From Eledone cirrhosa (lineage: Eukaryota), in contig OZ024740.1 of the NCBI GenBank assembly GCA_964016885.1, positions 275,466,001-275,530,000 on the forward strand: a DNA stretch of 64,000 bases, written 5' to 3'. The position numbers and the translations under genes were made by a program. Below, one piece after another: positions 1-54,678 of the stretch (positions are counted from its first letter, which is position 1; every line of letters starts with the position of its first letter). The notes below the pieces were generated by a model that did not search any database, had not been told where the DNA came from, and saw only the letters and a program-made list of their open reading frames with translations.

Positions 1-1570
1 CCATCAATCACCTCCTCTTCATGGACGATCTTAAGCTCTTCGGGAAAAGTGAGAAGGAGTTGGATGTGCTTGTTGACACTGTCCGTATTTTCAGCAGTGA
101 TATATGTATGCAGTTTGGTATTGGTAAATGTGGAGTCATTGTGATGAGGAGGGGTAGGTTGAGCAGAAGTAACGGGATCCAGATACCAACAGGTGAGATG
201 ATAAAGGAAATTGACTCTGAGGAAAGATACAAGTATTTGGGCGTTCTGGAGGCTGATGGCATAAAGAACAAAAAAATGAAGGAATTGTTAAGAACTGAAT
301 ACATTCGGAGAGTAAGGAGCGTATTGAAGTCACATCTGAACAGCAGAAATGCCATAAGCGCAGTAAATTCCCGAGCTGTGTCTATTATTAGGTACAGTGC
401 GGGAATTCTGAGATGGAATGTTGCTGAACAAAAAGAAATGGATAGGAAGACTAGGAAGCTATTGACTATCTACAACATGTTCCACAAGAGGAGTGATGTC
501 GATAGACTCTACCTAAGGAGATCTGAGGGTGGAAGAGGTCTTATCAGCATAGAGGACTGTGTTCAGATGGAGAAAAACAACCTATACAAATACGTGACCT
601 ATAGTAAGGAGCCAATGCTCAGAGCTGTACTGAAGGAGGGGACAGTAGGCCAGGGGATACCCAAGGAGGAAATAACATCAAGGAGGAAGAGCAGCCTTGA
701 GGGAAAATCCCTTCATAGTACCTTCTTTGAGAAAACTGAATTTAGAGATCCACAGACATGGAACTGGTTGAGAAGAGGAGACCTCAAAAAGGCTACAGAA
801 GGAATGCTAATGGCTGCGCAGGAGCAGGCCCTCAAAACGAAGTGGTTGAAGCACCATATCTACAAGGAGGAGGCCAGCCCACTGTGCAGGATCTGTGGAG
901 AGAGAGAGGAGACTGTGGCTCACATTGTGTCCGAGTGTAAACACCTAGCCCAGACCCACTATAAGGGCTGGAGACACGATGTGATGGGCAGGGTGATCCA
1001 CTGGCACCTGTGCAAAGTAAACAATCTACCACATTCTGAGAAATGGTATGAGCATAGGCCAGAGGCGGTGATGGAGAACAGTCAGGTGAAGGTGCTGTGG
1101 GATTTTAGGATACAGACGGACAAAAAACTGGAACACAATAGACCTGACCTGGTGGTTGTGGACAAAGAAAAAAGATCGTGCCTGATTGTGGATGTGGCCT
1201 GCCCGTTCGACACGAGAGTGCAAGAGAAGGAGAGGGAGAAAATTAACCGATACCAGGACCTAAAGTGGGAGGTGAAAAGGATTTGGAACTGCCATGAAGT
1301 CAAAGTGATCCCGATTGTCATAGGCGCACTGGGGACTATCTCCAAAGGTTTCCAGGGATGGTTAAAGAAAATCGGCCCCTTCACGCTTTTTGGAACGCTT
1401 CAAAAGGCATGCTTGCTTGGAACGGCAAGAACCCTCCGATACGTCCTGAATATCTGAGGCTGCAGGTAGTGGCTTGATATTCAATCCAACGGACTTTCCA
1501 GTTAACCAACATCAATGACTGAGATTCAAGGAATAACAATAACAATAATAATAATGATGATAATAATAAT
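1..1570 (+). mobile_element. R4/Dong-clade non-LTR retrotransposon (RLE type), 3' half; runs off the window start
   Basis: Uninterrupted ORF, ~75-bp 3' UTR, then AAT/AAC tail at 1532-1570; near-identical copy at 45450-46076. Confidence 0.93.
21..1457 (+). CDS. Reverse transcriptase C-terminus, CCHC knuckle and restriction-like endonuclease (frame open upstream of 21)
   Basis: HLLFMDD (RT catalytic motif), YKYLG, CRICGEREETVAHIVSEC, RHD, RPDLVVVD...D...EKINRY motifs of RLE LINEs. Confidence 0.93.
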   Translation: MDDLKLFGKSEKELDVLVDTVRIFSSDICMQFGIGKCGVIVMRRGRLSRSNGIQIPTGEMIKEIDSEERYKYLGVLEADGIKNKKMKELLRTEYIRRVRSVLKSHLNSRNAISAVNSRAVSIIRYSAGILRWNVAEQKEMDRKTRKLLTIYNMFHKRSDVDRLYLRRSEGGRGLISIEDCVQMEKNNLYKYVTYSKEPMLRAVLKEGTVGQGIPKEEITSRRKSSLEGKSLHSTFFEKTEFRDPQTWNWLRRGDLKKATEGMLMAAQEQALKTKWLKHHIYKEEASPLCRICGEREETVAHIVSECKHLAQTHYKGWRHDVMGRVIHWHLCKVNNLPHSEKWYEHRPEAVMENSQVKVLWDFRIQTDKKLEHNRPDLVVVDKEKRSCLIVDVACPFDTRVQEKEREKINRYQDLKWEVKRIWNCHEVKVIPIVIGALGTISKGFQGWLKKIGPFTLFGTLQKACLLGTARTLRYVLNI

Positions 1571-1938
1571 TGTTTCTACTTTTGGCACAAGGCCAGCAAT
1601 TATCCTAGTGCATTACTGGTACTTTATTTTATCGAGTCCGTAAGGATGAAAGGCAAAGTTAACCTCGGCGGGATTTGAACTCAGAATTGAAAGGGCCGTA
1701 ACTCTATGCGTCAAAGCATGGCGTCCGACCCTCATAAGGATGATAATAATAATTGTTTCTACTATTGGCACAAGGCCAGCAATTATCCCAGTGCATTACT
1801 GGTACTTTATTTTATCGACCCCATAGGTATGAAAGGCAAAGTTAATCTCGGCGGGATTTGAACCCAAAGTGTAAAGGGGCGTAACTCTAATTCTGCAAAG
1901 CATGGCATCTGACCCTCTACTGATACTGCTAATCCACA
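1571..1938 (-). mobile_element. Two tandem copies of tRNA-derived SINE family A (1571-1733, 1753-1938)
   Basis: On the minus strand: B-box-like GTTCAAATCC, central GCCTTTCATCCTTACGGGGTCGATAAAATAAAGTACCAG (resembles the Meta/MESC domain, from memory) and (ATT)n tail; full copies elsewhere carry A-box-like TGGCAGTATCGG. Confidence 0.9.
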
Positions 1939-1939
1939 A

Positions 1940-3393
1940 TAATAATTTCTTTATTGGCCACTAGAGCCTTCATATTGGCGACAATACCAAAAAACCCAGG
2001 TGAGTGGAGGTTTACAATAAAATCGAGTAAAAACATATTAACAAATCAATTAACAATAAAAATTCACCAATAGTGGGGAAAACCACCCAGGAGTGACTCA
2101 GGAACCACCTGACACTTTGTGGGCACTCAGGAAGGGCATATCCACTGCCAATTAACCAGCCTACAGGCGCATGCTCAGAGTATGCCCATTCCCACGAGCC
2201 ACTTTCGCCACATTCACTCACCTTTTAGCAAATGTACTGGGGGCGGGGGCAGCACTTCTCTCTCTACCCTCACCTTTCTTTCCAAGTAAAACTTGAAACA
2301 GTTGATGAGGGATTGGCCAAAGACAAAAGTGTCTATTTTCAATTCTTTAAATCCGATTCACCACACAACGTCTTTTGCTACCACCACCAGACAGAAGAAA
2401 ACTGCCTGCCGTTCCTGGCATTAAGAAGGCCACAGGCCAATCTTCACTATGGATTCAGTCGATAGCTGGATCCCTCCTAGACATGACAGCAGCTGTTCGA
2501 CATAACTCCACAAGTCAGTAATGCATGGATGCTGGATGAATGCATGCAGAATGATTTTGTTGCTCTGTGCACATCTCTGCCAGGTCCATATAACAGCACT
2601 AACATGCCTGTAGAGTTTATCTCAAACTGGCAGTGCCCCCAGTAGCACTACCAAGCAAGGGATTTCTGTAAGTTATGCATAGCCTCTGGCTCAAAAGTCC
2701 TCTGCAACGGACTGGTCAGTTCAAATTTGTTGATGCCCAGAGCCTTTCTGAGTGTATCTTTGTGCTTGCCCACCACTAATCCAATATAGAACTTGAGAAT
2801 GGAAGTTCTACTGACCACATTGCCAACCTGGTAGAGGGCAGTGCGCACGTGGCAACATTCCAGATGCCAGGCACCTAGTCTCAGTCTCTTCATAACCCAA
2901 GAGAATAGCTCAGGCAAAGAGATGAGCTGTGAAAAAGCCTGTCTCAAAAAAAAAAAAACACACACACACCCGTTCACCGTTTAAGTAGAATGTCTGGAGA
3001 TGCCACAGCCTTGGTTTATGTTTGCACATCATTATACTTGGTATGCCCAGCTTTCCATGTAGAGGGTGCTAGCAGCAGATGGACTGCCTCACCAATGGAA
3101 ACTGTCCCCTCCATAAGAAGTTGAAGAGGAGCCATTCCAATTTGCTGAGGCTTGAGCAGGGGTAAGGCATGATGGTCAGGTGGGAGTAGATGACGGATTT
3201 GATGTACATGTTCACCAACTCGTTTCATGGACAGCTGCCTGTCGGCCCATTTCTGAGTTAGAATGGTTACCCTGTTTGTAACCTCATCTAAATTCTTATC
3301 CACCTGGAGGTCTGATCCTAACCAAACCCTGAACAACTTTACTGGCATGCTGTTGGACAGCATGGATTTGCCACTCCAAGTGCCGAGCTGCAA
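1940..3393 (-). mobile_element. Degenerate 5'-truncated Tx1/L1-type LINE
   Basis: Translations match copies at 39585-42602 (VKLFRVWLGSDLQVDKN, MHNLQKSLAW); 3' end GTGGCCAATAAAGAAATTATT. Confidence 0.85.
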
Positions 3394-3528
3394 GTTCTCA
3401 TCTCACAAATTCAGAATTTTTTTCACTTTTCCATTACACACAAATTGCTTTCACTACCATGCACATTATGTCTTTTTGCCTTTGCAGCTATACTCTATTT
3501 TAGGGAGTTCTCTGCACTTCTGTCCTTC

Positions 3529-8103: not shown

Positions 8104-8712
8104 ATGTTTCTACTTTTGGCACAAGGCCAGGAATTACCCCAGTGCATTACTGGTACTTTATTTTATCGACCCCGTAAGGATGAAAGGCAAAATGAACCTC
8201 GGCAGATTTGAACTCAGAACATAAAGGACCATAACTCTATGCTGCAAAGCATGGTGTCTGATGCGCTACTGATATTGCCAAACCACCACCCTTGATAAGG
8301 ATAATAATAATAATAATGATTTCTTTATTAGCCACACGGGGCTCACATTAAGGAAACATTAAAGACTATACAGAACAATACAATGTGGTTTTTTCTTTGT
8401 GTAAAATAAAATTTATAAAAGAGACTAAGAAAATAAACATTTAAAACAAACATAACAACTTCCTTAAAGTTGAGGAGACTCTAAGGGTCACTCATGTAGA
8501 AATCCCCCCAAAACAACGGTCACCCTGTCCACTTGGGCAAAGTGACCTCTCTCAGTCTTTCTACTCCAATCTACAGGTGTATGCTCAAGGCAGGCCTATT
8601 TACATGGACCATGCGCACCACTCTCACCCACAAGGCCAGAAATTTGGGGAGAGGAGAAAGCTGATTAAATCGACCCTAGTGCATTACTGGTACTTTATTT
8701 TATTGACTCTGT
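8104..8712 (-). mobile_element. Stack: SINE A (8104-8292), Tx1 3' fragment (about 8318-8628), long-form SINE A fragment (about 8628-8712)
   Basis: Tx1 ORF end WVRVVRMVHVNRPALSIHL* and 3' end GTGGCTAATAAAGAAATCATTATT; SINE central domain. Confidence 0.8.
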
Positions 8713-13679: not shown

Positions 13680-15485
13680 GTGGCAGTGATGGTGGTGATG
13701 GAGTAGTGGCAGTAGTGGAGAAGGAGTAGTGGTGGTGGCAGTGATGAGGTAGTGGTGGCAGTGGTGGAGTATTGGTGGTAGTGGCAGAGATGGTCTAGTG
13801 GTGGCAGTGGTGATGGGGTAGTGGTGGTGGCAGTGATGGGGTAGTGGTAGTAGTGGTGGAGTATTGGTGGTGGTGGCAGAGATGCTCTAGTGGTGGCAGT
13901 GGTGATGGGGTAGTGGTGGAGTATTTGTGGTGGTGGTGGCAGAGATGCTCTAGTGGTGGCAGTGGTGGTGGAGGAGTGGTGGCAGTGATGGGGTAGTGAT
14001 GGCAGTGGTGATGACAGTGGTGGAGTATTGGTGGTAGTGGTGGTGATGGAGGAGTGGTGGCAGTGAAGATGGGGTAATGGTGGTGGCAGTGGTGGTGGAG
14101 TAGTGGTGGCAGTGATGGGGTAGTGATGGCAGAGGTGATGACAGTGGTGGAGTATTAGTGGTGGTGGTGGTGATGGAGGAGTGGTGGTAGTGGTGGTGGA
14201 GTAGTGGTGGCAGTGATGGGGTAGTGATGGCAGAGGTGATGACAGTGGTGGAGTATTAGTGGTGGTGGTGGTTATGGAGGAGTGGTGGCAGTGAAGATGG
14301 GGTAATGGTGGTGGCAGTGGTGGTGAGAAGTAGTGGCAGTGATGGGGTAGTGATGGCAGTGGTGGTGGTGGTGATGGAGGAGTGGTGGCAGTGAAGATGG
14401 GGTAATGGTGGTGATGGTGGGGTGGTGGCAGTGAAGATGGGGTAATGGTGGTGACAGTGGTGATGGAGTAGTGGTGGTGGCAGTGATAGGGTAGTGGTGG
14501 AGTATTGGTGGTGGTGGTGATGGAGGAGTGGTGGCAGTGAAGATGGGGTAATGGTGGTGGCAGTGGTGGTGAGAAGTAGTGGCAGTGATGGGGTAGTGAT
14601 GGCAGTGGTGGTGGTGGTGATGGAGGAGTGGTGGCAGTGAAGATGGGGTAATGGTGGTGATGGTGGGGTGGTGGCAGTGAAGATGGGGTAATGGTGGTGA
14701 CAGTGGTGATGGAGTAGTGGTGGTGGCAGTGATAGGGTAGTGGTGGAGTATTGGTGGTGGTGGTGATGGAGGAGTGGTGGCAGTGAAGATGGGGTAATGG
14801 TGGTGGCAGTGGTGGTGAGAAGTAGTGGCAGTGATGGGGTAGTGATGGCAGTGGTGGTGGTGGTGATGGAGGAGTGGTGACAGTGAAGATGGGGTAATGG
14901 TGGTGGCAGTGGTGGTGAGAAGTAGTGGCAGTGATGGGGTAGTGATGGCAGTGGTGGTGGTGGTGATGGAGGAGTGGTGGCAGTGAAGATGGGGTAATGG
15001 TGGTGATGGTGGGGTGGTGGCAGTGAAGATGGGGTAATGGTGGTGACAGTGGTGATGGAGTAGTGGTGGTGGCAGTGATAGGGTAGTGGTGGAGTATTGG
15101 TGGTGGTGGTGATGGAGGAGTGGTGGCAGTGAAGATGGGGTAATGGTGGTGGCAGTGGTGGTGAGAAGTAGTGGCAGTGATGGGGTAGTGATGGCAGTGG
15201 TGGTGGTGGTGATGGAGGAGTGGTGGCAGTGAAGATGGGGTAATGGTGGTGATGGTGGGGTGGTGGCAGTGAAGATGGGGTAATGGTGGTGACAGTGGTG
15301 ATTGGGTAGTGGTGGTGGCAGTGATAGGGTAGTGGTGGAGTATTGGTGGTGGTGATGATGGAGGAGTGGTGGCAGTGAAGATGGGGGTAATGGTGGTGGC
15401 AGTGGTGATGGGGTAGTGGTGGTGGCAGTGATAGGGTAGTGGTGGAGTATTGGTGGTGGTGGTGATGGAGGAGTGGTGGCAGTAA
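13680..15485. repeat. G-rich GTG-based complex minisatellite with a 246-bp higher-order unit
   Basis: Marker GAGAAG at 14325, 14571, 14817, 14917, 15163 (spacings 246, 246, 100, 246). Confidence 0.92.
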
Positions 15486-15712
15486 TGATGAATTTGTTGT
15501 TGTTGCTGCTGTTTTTGTGTTTGTCTCCACTAAATGTTGTAACCATAACAGCTGGGTGTTGTTATGTTTGTTTTTGTTTGTGCTGTGTTTTGTAGCCATA
15601 TGGCTTATTACTGACATCTTGTAGACAGGTTGACGTATAACTTATACTTTATCCTCAAAATTTAAACTAGCCATTTTGAATTTTTCAAGAAATTTGGAAA
15701 TTATTATTATTA

Positions 15713-16770
15713 TGGTTGGACGCCATGCTTTGATGCATAGAGTTATGGCCCTTTACGCCCTGAGTTCAAATCCTGCCGAGGTTAACTTTACCTTTCATCC
15801 TTATCGGGGTCGATAAAATAAAGTACCAGTAATGCACTGGGATAATTGCTGGCCTTGTTCCAAAAGTAGAAAGAATTATTATTATGGTCTCCCTCTTTGT
15901 ATTGTCCCTTACATGTCGGCCCTTGTGGCCAATAGATGAAATCATTATTATTATTAAGGGCGGTGGATTGGCAGTATTGGTAGAGGATCGGACGCCATGC
16001 TTTGATGCATAGAGTTCCGGCCCTTGCCATTCTGAGTTCAAATCCAGCCAAGGTTAACTTTGCCTTTCATCCTTACGAGGTCGATAAAATAAAGTACCAG
16101 TAAAGTACTGGCTAATTGCTGGCCTTGTGCCAATAGTAGAAACAATTATTATTATTATGGTGGATTGGCAGTATCAGTAGAGGGTCGGACGCCATGCTTT
16201 GCAGCAAAGAGTTACACCCCTTTATGGTCTCAGTTCAAATCCCGCTGAGGTTGACTTTGCCTTTCATCCTTACGGGGTCGATAAAATAAAGTACCAGTAA
16301 TGCACTGGGATAATTGCTGGCCTTGTGCTAAAAGTAAAAATGATAATAATAATAATAATAATTATTATTATTTTTATTATAGGTGGATTGGCAGTATCGG
16401 TAGAGGGTTGGACGCCATGCTTTGAAGCATAGAGTTACGTCCCTTTATGATCTGAGTTCAAATCCCGCCGAGGTTAACTTTGCCTTTCATCCTTACGGGG
16501 TCGATAAAATAAAGTACCAGTAATGTACTGGGTAATTGCTGGCCTTGTGCCAAAAGTAGAAACAATTATTATTATTATTATTTTGGTAGTATTGGTAGAG
16601 GGTCGGATGTCATGCTTTGCAGCAAAGAGTTATGGCCCTTTATTGTCGGAGTTCAAATCCTGCCGAGGTTAATTTTACCTTTCATCCTTACGGGGTCGAT
16701 AAAATAAAGTACCAGTAATACACTGGGATAATTGCTGGCCTTGTGCCAAAAGTAGAAACAATTATTATTA
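15713..16770 (+). mobile_element. Head-to-tail array of five SINE A copies plus a ~60-bp Tx1 3' end (about 15895-15955)
   Basis: Copies start at about 15713, 15958, 16158, 16381, 16584 and are separated by ATT/AAT repeats. Confidence 0.92.
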
Positions 16771-23253: not shown

Positions 23254-23585
23254 GCTACATTAAAATTCTCTATGTTAAATGGCGATGTACTGAATACCAT
23301 ATGCAGGCAAATCGTTTTTAATTAATTGTAATCCAAGTCTTAGCTAAAGAAAGACATTACAAAATTAATAGCAGTGATTACACTCAAAGGAAGGGGAGAT
23401 AATTTCAAGGAATTAAAGGTGGTCTTCTAACATTGCCATAGTCCATGGGCAGGAACTAGTTAAAAAGGAAAATTCATTTCTCAAGTTAAATTATATGCTC
23501 AAAGAAAGAACAGTTTACTCTAAATGATTCTAATGACAATTATGAAGAAGTTTCAGTCTATTACACCAGAAAACCCTGTAGATCA

Positions 23586-23908
23586 TTTGATAGTAAAATA
23601 GTTATGTTTTGACCAAACAATTTGATAGTAAAATAGTTATGTTTTGACCAAACAATTTGATAGTAAAATAGTTATGTTTTGACCAAACAATTTGATAGTA
23701 AAATAGTTATGTTTTGACTAAACAATTTGATAGTAAAATAGTTATGTTTTGACCAAACAATTTGATAGTAAAATAGTTATGTTTTGACCAAACAATTTGA
23801 TAGTAAAATAGTTATGTTTTGACTAAACAATTTGATAATAAAATAGTTATGTTTTGACCAAACATAATTTGATAGTAAAATAGTTATCATTTGAACAAAC
23901 ATAATTTG
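23586..23908. repeat. 35-bp minisatellite, about 9 copies
   Basis: Unit TTTGATAGTAAAATAGTTATGTTTTGACCAAACAA, no spacers. Confidence 0.97.
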
Positions 23909-39584: not shown

Positions 39585-41129
39585 TACACTAAAAGAATAC
39601 AAAGCGATGACAGGAGCAATGATCAACCAGGAAACGTCGGTGGGCCTGCAGCTCGGCACCTGGAGAGGCAGTCGGACACTGGACGCTGGTTAAATTGCTA
39701 GGGGTCTGGTTCGGTCCGGGCCTCCAGACGGACAAAAACTGGGATGAGGTGATGAGCAAGGTGGCTTCTCTCACCCAGAAATGGGTGGAGAGGAAGCTAT
39801 CCCTGAAAGGTCGAGCAGAGGTGGCTAACGCATACATCGCGTCCGCCATCTACTACCGCCTGACCATCGTGCCTTGTCCTAAGCCTCGCCTGACTGCGCT
39901 GGAGCGTTTGCTCTTTCGCTTTTTGTGGAAGGGACGCACTCCGATGGTCAGACGGTCCATCTGCTGTCAACACCCGCTATATGGAGGGCTGGGCATGCCG
40001 TGGCTGATGATGCGCAGACACGCGCTCAGGCGACGACATCTCCACCTCTTCCTCGACAGTGATCAGGTGTGGTCGCCGTTTGCTAAACGCATCTTTCCCC
40101 AGATCATCTCCTTGACGGAGCTGCAGTCCTGGGTCAAGCGAAGACTGAGAGGGAGCGCTTGGTGACTGGAATGTCTTCAGGCACTCACAGCCCTCGACCA
40201 ATCGGGTAATGTGATTGGTGGAAACTCCACCTTGGCGTTCTATAGGGATTTAGTGGAGGGGAAGAGCGACGACGAAACTCTAGGCGTCGACGAAAATCAA
40301 GTAACCAATCTCTTTGGAAGAACTTTCGGGCTGGGGCCTATGGAAAACTTCCAGAAATCCCTGGCCTGGCAGTGCTACTGATGAGCTTTGCCAGTTTGGG
40401 ATAAACTCTACAAGCATGGAGGTGCCATCAGCCGGGCATGTCCGAGATGCGCGCAGGGCGACGAAACCGTCCTGCATGCACTCGTCCAGTGTCCGAGCAT
40501 TGCTGACTTGTGGGTTTATGTCGAACACCTGCAGTCGCGTGTAGAATGGATCCGACTATCAGCTGAGTCCATCGTGAGGATTGTCCCGCCCTCTTCCTTT
40601 AGCTGGGAAGGGCAGGCAGTTTTTATCTGTCTGGTGGCCATGGCGAAAGAGATAGTATAGTGGACGTGTCTGAAAGGGCTGAAGACGAGCACTTACCTCT
40701 TCGGTGATGCCCTGATTAACTTTTTCCAATCTCATTTGAAAAGGAAAATCAGTGTAGAGAGGGAGGTGCTCTCTTCCCAGCTTTTTGTTGAAAAATGGGT
40801 GAGAGAGGCAAGAATGGCCCGAGTGAATGGACCTACTCTGAGTATATGCCTGTAAATTGAAGGAGGAAAACTGGGAGAGGACATTTGCCCTCGTTGTCAG
40901 GGTCACCGTGGGTTTTTTTAATGGGCTTTATCCACGATGGCTCTCGGAAGTCTTCCCCCTATTGGGGATTTTTCATTGTTCTTTTATTACATACTCTGTT
41001 TTTTTTGTTTTTTTTACACGCAGAAATGCCCATTTGTACCGTCCTGTATTGTCCTGTACTGTCCTTAATGTCTACTTTGTGTATACCCTTGTGGTTAATA
41101 AAGAAAGCATTATTATTATTATTATTATT
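39585..41129 (+). mobile_element. Tx1/L1-type LINE, 5'-truncated, frameshifted
   Basis: KLLGVWFG, LSLKGR, FRFLWKG, GGLGMP, CPRCAQGDETVLHALVQC knuckle; AATAAA then (ATT)n tail. Confidence 0.92.
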
Positions 41130-42601
41130 GTTAAATTGCTCGGGGTCTGGTTCGGACCGGACCTCCAGATGGTGAAAAACTGGAATGAGGTGACGAGCAA
41201 GGTGGCCTCCCTCACCCATAAATGGGCTGAGAGGAAGCTCTCCCTGAAAGGCCGGGCGGAGGTGGCGAATGCGTACATTGCATCCGTCATCTGCTACCGC
41301 CTCACCGTTGTCCGTTGCCCCGGCCCAACTCTCACCAAAATGGAGCGCCTCCTCTTCCGCTTTTTGTGGAAGGGACGTGCTCCATGGTCAGATGATCCAT
41401 CTGCTGTCAACACCCGTTGCGTGGAGGACTGGGCATGCCATGGCTGATGATGCGCAAACAGGCGCTGAGGCTGCGACATCTCTGGTGCTTCCTTGATGGT
41501 GAACAGGTGTGGTCGCCATTCGCCAGGCACGTTTTCCCACAGCTCGTCTCCTTGATGGAGCTGCAGTCCTGGGTCAGAAAAAGACCAAGAGATAGCGCTT
41601 GCAAACTGGAATGTCTCCAGGCGCTCACTGCCTTCTGCCAGCTGGGCACCAGTATCGGTGGAACATCCACCTCGGCTTTCTATAGAGGACTAGTGGAGGG
41701 GAAGAGCGACTAAGTTCTCGGAAAGATCCTGGGCGTCGAAGAATATCAGCTGTTTGCTCTCTTCCAGAGAACTTTCAGCCCAGGGCCTATGGATAACTTC
41801 CAAAAATCCCTGGCCTGGCAGTGCTACCGGAGAGCGCTGGCGGTTCGAGATAAGCTCTACAGGCACGGAAGTGCCGTCAGCCGAGCCTGTCCGAGATGCG
41901 CGCAGAGCCACAAAACCGTCGTGCATGCACTCGTTCAGTGCCCAAGCATTGCTGACTTGTGGAGCTATGTCGAATAGTTGCTGTCGCGTGTAGGAGTCTA
42001 TTGTGCAGATGGTCTCGCCGTCTTCCTTCGAGGAGGAAGGGCAGGCGGTTTTCATCTGCCTGGTGGCCATGGTGAAAGAGATTGTGTGGTGGACAAGGTT
42101 GAAAGGGTTAAAGACAGACACTTTCCTCTTCGGCGAATCCCTAATTAACTTTTTCAAGTTTCACTTGAAGAGGAAAATCAGGGTGGAGAGGCAAGTGCTA
42201 CCTTCTAGCAAGTTTGTTGAAAGGTGGGTGAATGTAGCGAGAATGGTCCGAGTGAACGGGACCACTCTGAATATATGTCTGTAGATGGAGAGATGGAAAA
42301 ATTGAGAGAGCGCGCTTGCCCTGGTGGTCAGGGTGGCCGTGGTCTTTTGTGTGGTTTTCGCCACGAGTAACCCTCGGAGGTTTCCCCCCTATTGGGGAAC
42401 TTTTCTTTGTTTCAATTTTCATTTTTATTGTTTATATATATATATGTTTCTATGTCTTTTTTTTCTTTTCTTATATAAATAATAAAAATATTTACACGCA
42501 CAAAACCCACATTGTACCGTCCTGTACCGTCCTGTGCCGTCTGTAATGTTTTTCTTGATGTCAGCCCTTGTGGCCAATAAAGGAATCATTATTATTATTA
42601 T

Positions 42602-42602
<1 letters not shown>
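41130..42602 (+). mobile_element. Second Tx1/L1-type copy starting in the ATT tail of the first
   Basis: Same motifs, clearly diverged from copy 1; ends GCCCTTGTGGCCAATAAAGGAATCATTATT. Confidence 0.92.
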
Positions 42603-43216: not shown

Positions 43217-44185
43217 TTATTATTTATCCATACAAGGAGTCGGTAGAGCTTTGTGACATATAGTTTCATTCCTTTATGTTCTTAGTTCAAATCCAGTCGA
43301 GGTTGTCCTTGCCTTTCATCCATACGGTGTTGATAAATAAAGCACTAATAATGTACTGATGTCGATTTAATTGACTTTCCTCTCCCTTTCTGGCCTTGTG
43401 ACTATAGCAGAAACAATTATTTTGCCTTTCATCCTTACGGGGTCGATAAAATAAAGTACCAGTAATGAACTGGGAAATTGCTGGCCTTGTGCCTAAAGTA
43501 GAAACAATTATTTATACATATAAGGAGGTTGGACTGGGTGAGTTGGAAGAGCTTTGTGGCAAAAAGTTATAGCCCTTTATGTTCTGAGTTCAAATCCAGC
43601 TGAGGTTAGCTTTGACTTTCATCCTTTCGGGGTTGATAAAATAAAGTACCAGTAATGCCCAAGGATTGATTTAATCAAGTTTCCCCTACCCCAAAATTGT
43701 TGGCCTTGTGCTTAAATCAGAAAACATTATTTTTTATTCATACAAGGGCGTTGGATTGGCAGAGTCGATAAAGTATCAGGCACCATGCTTTGTGGCATAG
43801 AGTTACAGCCCTTTACATTCTGAGTTCAAATCCAACCAAGGTTAGTTTTGCCTTTAATCCTTATGGGATTGATAAAATAAAGTACCAGTAATACACTGAG
43901 GCTGATTTAATTGACTTTCCTTCCCCAAAAAGTGTTTGCCTTGTGCCTAACTCAGAAACAATTATTATTTATACATATAAGGGCAGTAGATTAGCAGAAT
44001 CATTAGAGTGTCAGACAAATTCCTTTGCAGCATTTAGTTATGGCCCTTTATATTCTGAGTTCAAATTACGTTTCATTAATAAAAAAAAAAGTACCAGGTA
44101 ATTATTGGGGTCAATTTAATCAACTTGTCTCCCCCATAAATTGCTGCTCTTGTGCCTAAATTAGAAATAATTATTTATACACATA
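43217..44185 (+). mobile_element. Array of four long-form SINE A copies and one truncated short-form copy
   Basis: Copies at about 43235, 43421, 43523, 43745, 43980 with a recurring spacer. Confidence 0.88.
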
Positions 44186-45453: not shown

Positions 45454-46076
45454 CACCTAGCCCAGACCCACTATAAGGGCTGGAGACACGATGTGATGGG
45501 CAGGGTGATCCACTGGCACCTGTGCAAAGTAAACAATCTACCACATTCTGAGAAATGGTATGAGCATAGGCCAGAGGCGGTGATGGAGAACAATCAGGTG
45601 AAGGTGCTGTGGGATTTTAGGATACAGACGGACAAAAAACTGGAACACAATAGACCTGACCTGGTGGTTGTGGACAAAGAAAAAAGATCGTGCCTGATTG
45701 TGGATGTGGCCTGCCCGTTCGACACGAGAGTGCAAGAGAAGGAGAGGGAGAAAATTAACCGATACCAGGACCTAAAGTGGGAGGTGAAAAGGATTTGGAA
45801 CTGCCATGAAGTCAAAGTGATCCCGATTGTCATAGGCGCACTGGGGACTATCTCCAAAGGTTTCCAGGGATGGTTAAAGAAAATCGGCCCCTTCACGCTT
45901 TTTGGAACGCTTCAAAAGGCATGCTTGCTTGGAACGGCAAGAACCCTCCGATACGTCCTGAATATCTGAGGCTGCAGGTAGTGGCTTGATATTCAATCCA
46001 ACGGACTTTCCAGTTAACCAACATCAATGACTGAGATTCAAGGAATAACAATAACAATAATAATAATAACAATAAC
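45450..46076 (+). mobile_element. 5'-truncated young copy of the R4/Dong LINE inserted in (AAT)n
   Basis: Matches 938-1555 with one difference seen (G1081 vs A45593); (AAT)n at 45409-45450. Confidence 0.96.
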
Positions 46077-53587: not shown

Positions 53588-54678
53588 TAATAATAATGAA
53601 ATTATTGTGTACAGTGCTCAGGTGCACTACAAATCATCAAAGATGCATATATAGTACATAGAATAATGTACAAATGTCATGAAAGTGAACAGTGTAAGGG
53701 TCATGATATACACACAGATACATGCATGCATGTGTATGGAGGGGGAACATCAGGTGTAGTGTTGGCGAATTTCAGGAAGCATGAAAGTTTTGAAGGATGC
53801 AATGTCCTGACAACTAACAACCAATGTTGGTAGTTTGTTCCATTCTTCAGCAACTCTGAGAGTCAAAAAATGTTTCCGAAAGTCATGTGAGCTCTGCTGT
53901 TTTCTGACTTTGTAGGCATGCCTACGGGTGTTAGACACATGGAATTCAAAAAGGTTCTCAGGGTTGTTGTTGGCAAGATGGTTAATAATTTTGTGGGTGT
54001 TTACCAAGTCAGTTGCCAGATGTCAGAGCTTCAATGTATCAATACCCAGGGAAGCAAGGTGTTCAGTGTAAGATAGATGCCTTGTGGAGAGTATTTGCTT
54101 GGTTGCACATCTCTGAACAGTTTCTAGGAGGTCATTATTCTGAGCAAGATAGGGGTTCCAGACTGGTGATGCAAATTCTAAGTGTGGCCAGACCACATCT
54201 ATATACTGATTTAAATAGATAGCTGGAGAGTGGCTGACAAAGGTCGTGCTGAGTGATGCCAAGACACCCTCAGCCTTCTTGAGAATTTTAGAGTTATGCT
54301 TCATCCAATGCAAATTGCTGCTGACAGTAATACCCAGGTCACATACACAAGAAGAGTTTTTGAGATTAGTGTTGTTGAGGGAGTATATATGGATGCTGGG
54401 TTTTTCCTCCCAAAATGCATGATTGAGTTGCCAGTCCATGATTCATTGCTGCATTGTATCCAGGTCTGATTTCAGGAAAGACGTATAGTGTTCAGGATCC
54501 TTACTATTTATCTCAAGGTACAGCTTCATGTCATTTGTGTATTTAAGCCCTGTGTCATTCTTTAAGTAGGCATCTATGTAATTAATATATGCAACAAACA
54601 AAAGGGGACCAATAACAGATCCATGTGGTTCACGAGATGACATCTCATAGGGTGAAGAATACTATCCCAGAACCGTGA
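53588..54678 (-). mobile_element. CR1-clade LINE, degenerate 3' part
   Basis: GSVIGPLLFVAYIN, PHLEFASPVWNPY, LETVQRCATK, HFLTLRVAEEWNKLP; short ATT tail. Confidence 0.9.

What the first reader, a model, noticed from the sequence alone, without database searches (positions are those of the whole stretch)
42561..42602. SINE A shares its 3' terminus with the Tx1/L1-type LINE: a candidate ATT-targeting partner pair
Seen: Tx1 ends (42563, 41085, 15929, 8318-, 1945-) approximate GCCCTTGTGGCCAATAAAGAAATCATTATT. SINE A ends GGCCTTGTGCCAAAAGTAGAAACAATTATT. Both have ATT tails, land in ATT tracts and stack in the same orientation (1571-3393, 8104-8712, 15713-16770). Known: SINEs borrow the 3' end of their partner LINE, and several Tx1 families are microsatellite-specific. 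Inference: the dominant SINE is mobilised by this Tx1 family through tail recognition. The match is only about 30 bp, and the CR1 here also has an ATT tail.
Basis: partly seen in the sequence, partly recalled or inferred. Interest (0 to 1): 0.75.

Follow-up and report, generated by a model that had tools for sequence, protein, structure and literature searches.

The report
Abundant SINE mimics Tx1 retrotransposon tail
The commonest short jumping element in this stretch of a likely octopus genome ends in a worn version of the 25-base signal, predicted to fold into a small RNA hairpin, that ends a family of repeat-targeting retrotransposons, and it lands at the same ATT motif, so those retrotransposons likely copy it, though not necessarily the subfamily flagged here.

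Summary
The LINE is L1/Tx1-type (APE endonuclease, RT, zf-RVT, CCHC ORF1) and belongs to a radiation of ATT- and ATCT-targeting subfamilies. They share a 25-nt end: a 4-bp stem with covarying pairs, a 5-nt loop, AATAAA and GAAA. SINE A (about 187 bp, roughly 300,000 copies) carries a diverged version: 16 of 25 identical to the flagged family, same loop, same spacing, one flipped pair. It scores 11.4 bits on a Tx1 profile; 3 of 41,136 background sites do as well, and five other LINE ends score below -8. The best evidence is the insertion signature. SINE A has 12-21 bp duplications starting ATTA (59 of 112), and Tx1 has ATT on both flanks. The ATT-tailed CR1 has ATT upstream in 0 of 32 copies. 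Against: an unanchored profile search misses the SINE tail, the hairpin is not the SINE's best fold, the SINE uses shorter ATT targets, and the flagged subfamily (2.5% diverged) is younger than the SINE peak (6.5%). Verdict: the ATT-Tx1 lineage is the likely mobiliser (about 75%), through tail recognition about 60%. This scan noted the same pairing before, in this genome and in another.

The parts
41130..42587 (+). 5'-truncated Tx1/L1-type LINE, subfamily Tx1a (ORF2 C-terminus plus about 306-nt 3' UTR), inserted in the ATT tail of a Tx1b copy
   Evidence: longer relatives carry Exo_endo_phos, RVT_1 and zf-RVT
42563..42575 (+). Predicted 3' hairpin: stem AGCC/GGCC (3 of 4 pairs) around loop CTTGT
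   Evidence: (pair probability about 0.8 for a family copy)
42576..42587 (+). AATAAA followed by a GAAA-like terminal block, conserved across Tx1 subfamilies
42588..42602 (+). (ATT)5 tail/target tract
39690..41108 (+). 5'-truncated Tx1b copy; stem variant (family AACC/GGTT), followed by (ATT)7
15889..15943 (+). Very short Tx1d 3' fragment (stem GGCC/GGCC) inside the SINE stack
8318..8620 (-). Tx1c 3' fragment (6-nt loop variant); subfamily divergence 6.5%, equal to the SINE A median
1946..3396 (-). Old Tx1f copy heading the 1571-3393 stack
16382..16564 (+). Representative SINE A: Pol III A-box-like motif about 16389-16400, B-box-like motif about 16456-16465, central domain, Tx1-like tail
   Evidence: boxes read by eye; no tRNA call by ARAGORN or Rfam
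16540..16564 (+). SINE A 25-nt terminus: stem TGGC/GCCA around loop CTTGT, 16 nt from loop to ATT as in Tx1a and Tx1b
15714..16760 (+). Head-to-tail stack of five SINE A copies and one Tx1d fragment separated by ATT tracts
1571..1937 (-). Two SINE A copies behind Tx1f, abutting the AAT tail of an opposite-strand Dong/R4-like LINE (3-1536, +)
8105..8291 (-). SINE A behind the Tx1c end
53598..54352 (-). ATT-tailed CR1 3' part (rival partner; unrelated tail, no ATT target signature)

Best explanation
SINE A is a likely Pol III-transcribed, non-autonomous retroposon that ends in a diverged copy of the 25-nt terminus of a microsatellite-targeting L1/Tx1-type LINE lineage, and it is likely copied by the ORF2 protein of that lineage's ATT-targeting branch, which would bind a predicted small stem-loop with a CUUGU loop. 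Inferred mechanism: the APE endonuclease nicks the strand opposite ATTAT(T). The freed AAT-rich primer end pairs with the RNA's AUU end. Target-primed reverse transcription and a second nick about 12-21 nt away then give a TSD that starts ATTA. Each insertion leaves ATT on both sides, so LINEs and SINEs pile up in one orientation, and antisense to AAT-tailed Dong elements. The SINE RNA probably ends after only one or two AUU units, which would explain why it accepts shorter targets than the LINE. Several successive subfamilies (Tx1c, then b, then a) probably served as the driver. Shown: sequences, TSDs, flanks, orientation, covariation in Tx1. Inferred: RNA fold in the SINE, protein-RNA recognition, transcription, nick positions.
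For: LINE identity: Exo_endo_phos, RVT_1 and zf-RVT; best solved relative human L1 ORF2p, E 7e-7; CCHC knuckle read in ORF1. Conserved terminus: ends found by walking from the ORF to the first microsatellite show the motif in all ATT-type subfamilies. Across 14 subfamily representatives 48 of 56 stem cells pair (slid controls 7-28), and pair 2 swaps G-C (10) to A-T (2), permutation p 0.0055 ignoring relatedness. With five SINE rows included, covariation is 0.386, reached by 4 of 500 shuffles; the third pair is C-G in 7 rows and G-C in 4 SINE rows. Tail match: 11.4 bits, 3 of 41,136 background, against CR1 -8.6, RTE -22, RTE-X-like -21.5, Dong -10 and -12. Frequent SINE tail variants fall downstream of the 3-bp stem and loop. 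Insertion signature: SINE A TSD of 10 bp or more in 59 of 112 copies (permuted mean 4.6, max 9), mostly 12-21 bp, mode 18, 53 of 59 starting ATTA. Two or more ATT units just upstream of the 5' end in 64 of 112 SINE A, 13 of 29 Tx1a, 22 of 37 Tx1b and 0 of 32 CR1, against 2.5% background; upstream ATTATT also in RTE 1 of 17, RTE-X-like 0 of 14, Dong 0 of 30. Reported L1-clade TSDs are 7-18 bp and RTE 7-15 (PMC6007223). Orientation: SINE next to ATT-Tx1 34 same, 4 opposite; SINE next to Dong 1 same, 23 opposite. Timing: SINE A median divergence 6.5% (range 2.5-14), Tx1c 6.5%, Tx1b 3.4%, Tx1a 2.5%. One SINE A sits inside a Tx1a 3' UTR with a 14-15 bp TSD (L234).
Against: The match is short and degraded. 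An unanchored nhmmer profile of Tx1 ends finds 27 Tx1 ends at E below 2e-5 but SINE tails only at E 17 or worse. The SINE lacks AATAAA. The PWM representatives were gathered with a filter that required the AATAAA/GAAA part, and the register was chosen by eye. The hairpin is not the SINE's best fold: pair probability is 0.12-0.13 in the full RNA and 0.4 in the last 45 nt, and other hairpins form in the MFE. Only 7 of 14 Tx1 representatives fold it with probability near 0.8 or more, and folding z-scores are mostly not significant. The SINE uses shorter targets than Tx1a/b: three or more ATT units upstream in 18 of 112 against 32 of 66, Fisher p 5e-6. Tx1 TSDs cannot be told from arrays (permutation uninformative), and 15 of 66 Tx1a/b copies have no ATT upstream. 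ATCT-branch tails match the SINE as well as ATT-branch tails. The age-matched Tx1c has the poorer tail match (13 of 25). A second CR1-like family has a weak resemblance (local score 18, 58 of 3000 shuffles). LINE age sets were picked by similarity to one copy. Only about 2 Mb of 3 Gb was surveyed. SINE A outnumbers ATT-Tx1 ends about 12 to 1 (106 against 9 in 1.08 Mb).
Confidence: 0.6

Rival explanations
1. ATT-Tx1 ORF2p copies SINE A, but in a relaxed way, through primer pairing with the AUU end. The tail resemblance is a relic of an old tail capture and is no longer read.
For: Same target signature, but a degraded tail, no AATAAA and low hairpin probability in the SINE. SINEU of crocodilians is assigned to Tx1-Mar with no shared terminus (PMC4494074).
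Against: SINE subfamilies keep the 3-bp stem, loop and GAAA while the spacer varies. The flipped pair keeps pairing.
Confidence: 0.17
2. The true partner is a LINE not sampled here or now extinct (for example another CR1-like or RTE-like family). Tx1 merely shares the ATT target and the short resemblance is convergent.
For: Only about 2 Mb surveyed. The SINE scores well below any Tx1 end. Its target stringency differs from Tx1a/b. CR1b/CR1d ends score 18 in local alignment. Several old families had no recoverable 3' end.
Against: A driver of about 300,000 copies, some recent, should leave many copies of itself. A scan of 1.27 Mb for SINE-like tails without a SINE body returned only truncated or older SINEs, captured internal fragments and a Tx1 end. 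CR1b has 3 ends in 2 Mb, none with an ATT array. Its best alignment spans a junction that exists only in the short SINE form.
Confidence: 0.17
3. The abundant ATT-tailed CR1 mobilises SINE A through the shared ATT tail.
For: CR1 is abundant and young, ends in ATT, and SINE A lies next to it in the same orientation in 13 of 13 cases.
Against: The tail is unrelated (5 of 25; -8.6 bits; 1709 of 2000 shuffles as good). CR1 has no ATT upstream (0 of 32) and its 2 of 32 duplications do not start ATT, so its ATT is element-encoded and not a target.
Confidence: 0.04

Closest known systems
SINEU / Tx1-Mar of crocodilians (Kojima 2015, PMC4494074; passages read)
   Same: A SINE assigned to Tx1-clade machinery by shared target preference and overlapping age.
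   Different: SINEU has snRNA heads and poly(A) tails, and no LINE sharing the SINEU-1 terminus was found. Here there is a Pol III-type head, no poly(A), a microsatellite target and a shared terminal motif.
Microsatellite-targeting Tx1 families Kibi (TC)n, Koshi (TTC)n and crocodilian (TTCC)n/(TTTC)n families (PMC4494074)
   Same: APE-type LINE inserting into simple repeats, with subfamilies that switch repeat unit (ATT or ATCT here).
   Different: Different units and a different phylum. No partner SINE is reported for them in the passages read. Phylogenetic placement next to Kibi/Koshi was not tested.
Stringent-type SINE/LINE pairs with a 3' stem-loop, notably ZmSINE2/3 with LINE1-1_ZM and SINEX-3 with L1-1_CR (PMC3747384; section 7 and passages)
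   Same: A conserved short 3' hairpin with variable, compensated stem and conserved loop shared by LINE and SINE.
   Different: That survey found only 3 SINEs with L1-clade tails, all from plants or a green alga. The shared stretch here is much shorter (about 25 nt) and more diverged.
Octopus tRNA-derived SINEs (OK, OR1, OR2; tRNA-Core and tRNA-Deu classes; PMC4758252, PMC4824008, PMC8967140 passages)
   Same: Very abundant short SINE with a central domain in a cephalopod-like repeat landscape.
   Different: No partner LINE is given in the passages read. Bivalve SINE partners are CR1, CR1-Zenon, L2 and Nimb (PMC11481361).

Membership tests
L1/Tx1-group LINE | ORF2 with N-terminal APE endonuclease, RT and C-terminal zinc-binding zf-RVT | tested here: met
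   Pfam on L031, L034, L039; closest PDB human L1 ORF2p
Tx1 clade | ORF1 with a CCHC zinc knuckle (feature recalled, not from a call) | tested here: met
   CX2CX4HX4C read by eye in ORF1 translations of both branches; Pfam gave no hit on those ORFs
Tx1 clade | Target-sequence preference | tested here: met
   ATT upstream in 35 of 66 Tx1a/b copies against 2.5% background; ATCT-type duplication in 19 of 20 ATCT-branch copies
Tx1 clade | RT phylogeny grouping with named Tx1 elements rather than L1 proper | not testable with these tools
   No named Tx1 sequence was returned. Homologues are unnamed or hypothetical fish proteins. The tree has no labelled reference.
SINE | Short, non-coding, high copy, fixed 3' end, 5' truncations, TSDs | tested here: met
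   187 bp; 130 copies in 1.144 Mb; TSD in 59 of 112
tRNA-derived SINE | Head homologous to a tRNA, with A and B boxes | tested here: inconclusive
   Box-like motifs seen by eye; ARAGORN 0 genes; Rfam no tRNA match
Deu/Nin or CORE SINE superfamily | Central domain homologous to the published domain consensus | not testable with these tools
   A 67-bp core is shared by several SINE forms. The Deu/Nin label is recalled and also appears in an earlier AI note; no reference sequence was in hand.
Stringent-type SINE/LINE pair | SINE 3' end homologous to the LINE 3' terminus | tested here: met
   16 of 25 identity; 11.4 bits, 3 of 41,136 background. Weak: not found by unanchored profile search.
Stringent-type SINE/LINE pair | Shared 3' stem-loop | tested here: inconclusive
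   Covariation in Tx1 and a flipped pair in the SINE, but SINE pair probability only 0.12-0.4
Stringent-type SINE/LINE pair | Same insertion signature and overlapping activity | tested here: met
   target stringency differs
Stringent-type SINE/LINE pair | Trans-mobilisation depends on the shared tail | not testable with these tools
   needs a cell or in vitro assay

The most novel reading that the evidence does not exclude
The dominant SINE of this cephalopod-like genome is an animal case of a stringent SINE partner for the L1/Tx1 group. A 13-nt hairpin with a CUUGU loop is the RNA signal read by Tx1 ORF2p, kept while the lineage switched between ATT and ATCT targets. The SINE has ridden successive ATT-Tx1 subfamilies and reached about 300,000 copies by relaxing the target from ATT arrays to any ATTAT.
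Probability: 0.5. Interest if true: 0.65.

Novelty: new variant of a known kind. Interest (0 to 1): 0.5.

Why it matters
SINEs are about 12% of the Octopus vulgaris assembly (PMC13282606), and the passages I read name no partner LINE for them. Tail-sharing pairs in the L1 group are rare, and those listed are from plants and algae (PMC3747384). If true, this names the enzyme behind a major SINE expansion in a cephalopod-like genome. It also gives a minimal, naturally varied RNA element for testing how an L1-group ORF2p reads its template, which bears on whether stringent recognition was ancestral in the L1 clade. It explains the oriented LINE/SINE stacks at ATT tracts. The mechanism class itself is textbook, so the surprise is moderate.

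Tried and rejected
1. A SINE-tail match downstream of a Dong/R4-like LINE (L068:9610-9660) looked like a better partner. Rejected: the Dong ends about 900 bp earlier with an AAT tail, and the match is an internal captured fragment in another repeat.
2. CR1 copies carrying the SINE tail in the 3' UTR. Rejected as the source of the tail: these are four separate SINE insertions at one ATTATTCT site, with different 5' ends and duplications.
3. Dong/R4 as mobiliser. Rejected: opposite-strand AAT target; SINE antisense to it in 23 of 24 adjacent pairs.
4. RTE and RTE-X-like families: ATG and TA tails, no tail match, no ATT upstream. The RTE TSD test was unfair (offsets allowed only after ATT) and was redone.
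5. CR1b: a genome search for more copies returned nothing although the query comes from the genome, so its TSDs are untested beyond 3 local ends.
6. Tx1c TSDs were mostly unreadable (old copies, noisy 5' ends). The row 'Tx1c unb n=140' was dropped because its reference included SINE sequence. Searches stopped early, so unbiased ages for CR1, RTE and Dong and a 3'-anchored global alignment were not obtained.
7. Insertion order of Tx1 into SINE tails (12 adjacent cases) could not be fixed by unique TSDs.
8. No RNA holder listed. Laying two contig runs on a SINE copy confirmed high abundance, but the variant table is incomplete near the tail and was not used.
9. Rfam and ARAGORN gave no tRNA match. 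Homologue searches gave no Tx1-named protein.
10. Literature searches found no report of an octopus SINE-Tx1 pair. Ohshima and Okada 1994/2005, Kojima and Fujiwara 2004 and Repbase/SINEBase entries were not readable, and no supplements were read, so prior description there is not excluded.

Full report
Setting. The window is G000:C1:275466001-275530000 in a 3.0-Gb assembly. Its repeat content (CR1, RTE, Dong/R4-like, Penelope-like and Tx1-like LINEs and very abundant SINEs) resembles that described for octopuses (PMC13282606, part 1 of 3 read; PMC8967140, passages). 'Octopus-like' is my inference, not a tool result. Evidence came from the window, a 1.14-Mb position-chosen sample (window, its neighbours and spaced blocks) and loci picked by similarity, about 2.0 Mb in all.

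Observation. The window is rich in both elements: 24 SINE A copies and 5 Tx1 ends in 64 kb, against 106 and 9 in the other 1.08 Mb.

The LINE. Longer relatives encode an APE endonuclease, RT and zf-RVT, with human L1 ORF2p the best solved match. ORF1 ends in a CCHC knuckle read by eye. No named Tx1 reference was available, so 'Tx1' rests on architecture and target specificity. The genome holds a radiation of subfamilies, some ending in (ATT)n and some in (ATCT)n. In a tree of 19 genome rows and 5 outgroup rows each tail type needs one change, with low support (73/49 and 61/39). All end in the same design: a 4-bp stem, a 5-nt (sometimes 6-nt) pyrimidine-rich loop ending GT, then AATAAA and GAAA. 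In 14 representatives 48 of 56 stem cells pair, against 7-28 when the partner is slid. The second pair is G-C in 10 and A-T in 2 (permutation p 0.0055, relatedness ignored). Seven of the 14 fold this hairpin with probability near 0.8 or more.

The SINE. SINE A is 187 bp with Pol III box-like motifs; ARAGORN and Rfam do not call a tRNA. Extrapolated copy number is about 300,000. It is the short form of a family: 121 of 183 core-domain hits are of this type, and a longer form with about 40 extra bases has the same tail design. Without gaps, the last 25 nt align to Tx1a at 16 of 25, with the same CTTGT loop and the same 16-nt distance to ATT. The stem (TGGC/GCCA) has one pair flipped relative to Tx1. 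On a 12-row alignment of LINE and SINE ends, covariation is 0.386, reached by 4 of 500 shuffles. Common SINE tail variants fall in the spacer, not in the inner stem or loop.

How strong is the match? On a matrix from the 14 Tx1 ends the SINE scores 11.4 bits. Three of 41,136 masked ATT-preceding sites do as well, the best of which looks like another old Tx1 end at window 9917. Five other LINE ends score -8.6 to -22. By local alignment, Tx1 ends score 12-27 and 17 non-Tx1 ends 8-18; the best non-Tx1 are two CR1-like ends at 18 (58 and 76 of 3000 shuffles). On the other side, true Tx1 ends score 21-36 in leave-one-out, and the representatives were collected with a filter on the AATAAA/GAAA part. 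An unanchored nhmmer search ranks SINE tails at noise level (E 17 or worse). The hairpin is a minor fold in the SINE RNA (0.12-0.4). The tail alone is therefore suggestive, not decisive.

Insertion signature. This is the stronger evidence. Of 112 SINE A copies from the position-chosen sample, 59 have a TSD of 10 bp or more (permuted flanks: mean 4.6, max 9). Lengths are mostly 12-21 bp, and 53 of 59 start ATTA. The ATT 'tail' is thus largely target. Two or more ATT units lie just upstream of the 5' end in 64 of 112 SINEs, 13 of 29 Tx1a and 22 of 37 Tx1b, but 0 of 32 ATT-tailed CR1. Upstream ATTATT is seen in 1 of 17 RTE, 0 of 14 RTE-X-like and 0 of 30 Dong copies, and background is 2.5%. Dong-like elements use the same microsatellite on the other strand: SINE and ATT-Tx1 lie antisense to them in 23 of 24 and 37 of 38 adjacent pairs. 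The SINE is less demanding than the LINE (three or more units in 18 of 112 against 32 of 66), and Tx1 TSDs cannot be separated from the arrays. Same-strand stacking follows from the shared target and also occurs behind CR1 tails (13 of 13), so it is not separate proof.

Timing. Median divergence from family majority: SINE A 6.5% (n=98, range 2.5-14%), Tx1c 6.5% (n=21), Tx1b 3.4% (n=22), Tx1a 2.5% (n=31), ATCT branch 0.3% (n=25), CR1 0.9% (n=63). The LINE sets were chosen by similarity and are biased young. One SINE A lies inside a Tx1a 3' UTR with a 14-15 bp TSD. Four distinct SINE A insertions occupy one ATTATTCT site in CR1 copies whose upstream part is 97-99% identical to the reference (the query favoured such loci). 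SINE activity thus lasted into the Tx1a period, but its bulk matches the older Tx1c.

Mechanism. The most likely reading is target-primed reverse transcription by ATT-branch Tx1 ORF2p: binding of the SINE RNA at the hairpin, a nick opposite ATTAT, priming on the AUU end, and a second nick 12-21 nt away. A short AUU end on the SINE RNA would explain the relaxed target. All of these biochemical steps are inferred. I put the Tx1 lineage as mobiliser at about 0.75 and tail recognition at about 0.6. The main rivals are relaxed use by the same enzyme and an unsampled LINE.

Known systems and novelty. SINEU/Tx1-Mar is assigned by shared target, with no shared terminus found for SINEU-1 (PMC4494074, passages). 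A survey of 58 pairs lists only 3 SINEs with L1-clade tails, from maize, sorghum and Chlamydomonas (PMC3747384, section 7 and passages). Passages of PMC4758252, PMC5804259, PMC4824008, PMC3531059, PMC5786205 and PMC11481361 name octopus SINEs or mollusc partners but no octopus SINE-Tx1 pair; of PMC6007223 I read the abstract and part of the results. Six searches found no such report. Key older papers and Repbase were out of reach, and no supplements were read. Three earlier AI notes of this scan reach the same idea, two in this genome and one in another; my reading was recorded before I saw them and they are not independent support. Verdict: a real, moderately well supported new variant of a known kind; interest 0.5.

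Noticed in passing
window 3-1536 (+) and 45454-46075 (+); L068:5900-8708: Dong/R4-like LINEs with a restriction-like endonuclease motif and AAT tails insert into the same microsatellite on the opposite strand; ATT-Tx1 and SINE A then insert antisense into their tails.
   Followed up: partly
L064:3995-6636 (-); L292-L320: A very young (0.3% diverged) sister Tx1 branch targets (ATCT)n and keeps the same hairpin. No SINE with an ATCT tail appeared among the clusters shown.
   Followed up: partly
L114:2850-2915, L202, L203, L211: Four independent SINE A insertions at one ATTATTCT site in the 3' UTR of young CR1 copies: a local hot spot.
   Followed up: partly
L061, L063, L076 (third cluster): A SINE form with the same central domain but an unrelated, longer CT-rich 3' region, suggesting a tail swap to another partner.
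   Followed up: no
L068:9610-9660, L012, L027, L087, L126: A SINE-tail fragment is fixed inside another, unclassified repeat family and has been copied with it.
   Followed up: partly
   Followed up: partly
window 43248-44170 (+): Stack of older, longer SINE copies with a short inverted repeat and a pyrimidine-rich block that SINE A lacks.
   Followed up: partly
window 13686-15490 and 23585-23901: A 1.8-kb GT-rich degenerate tandem array and a 35-bp by 9 minisatellite.
   Followed up: no
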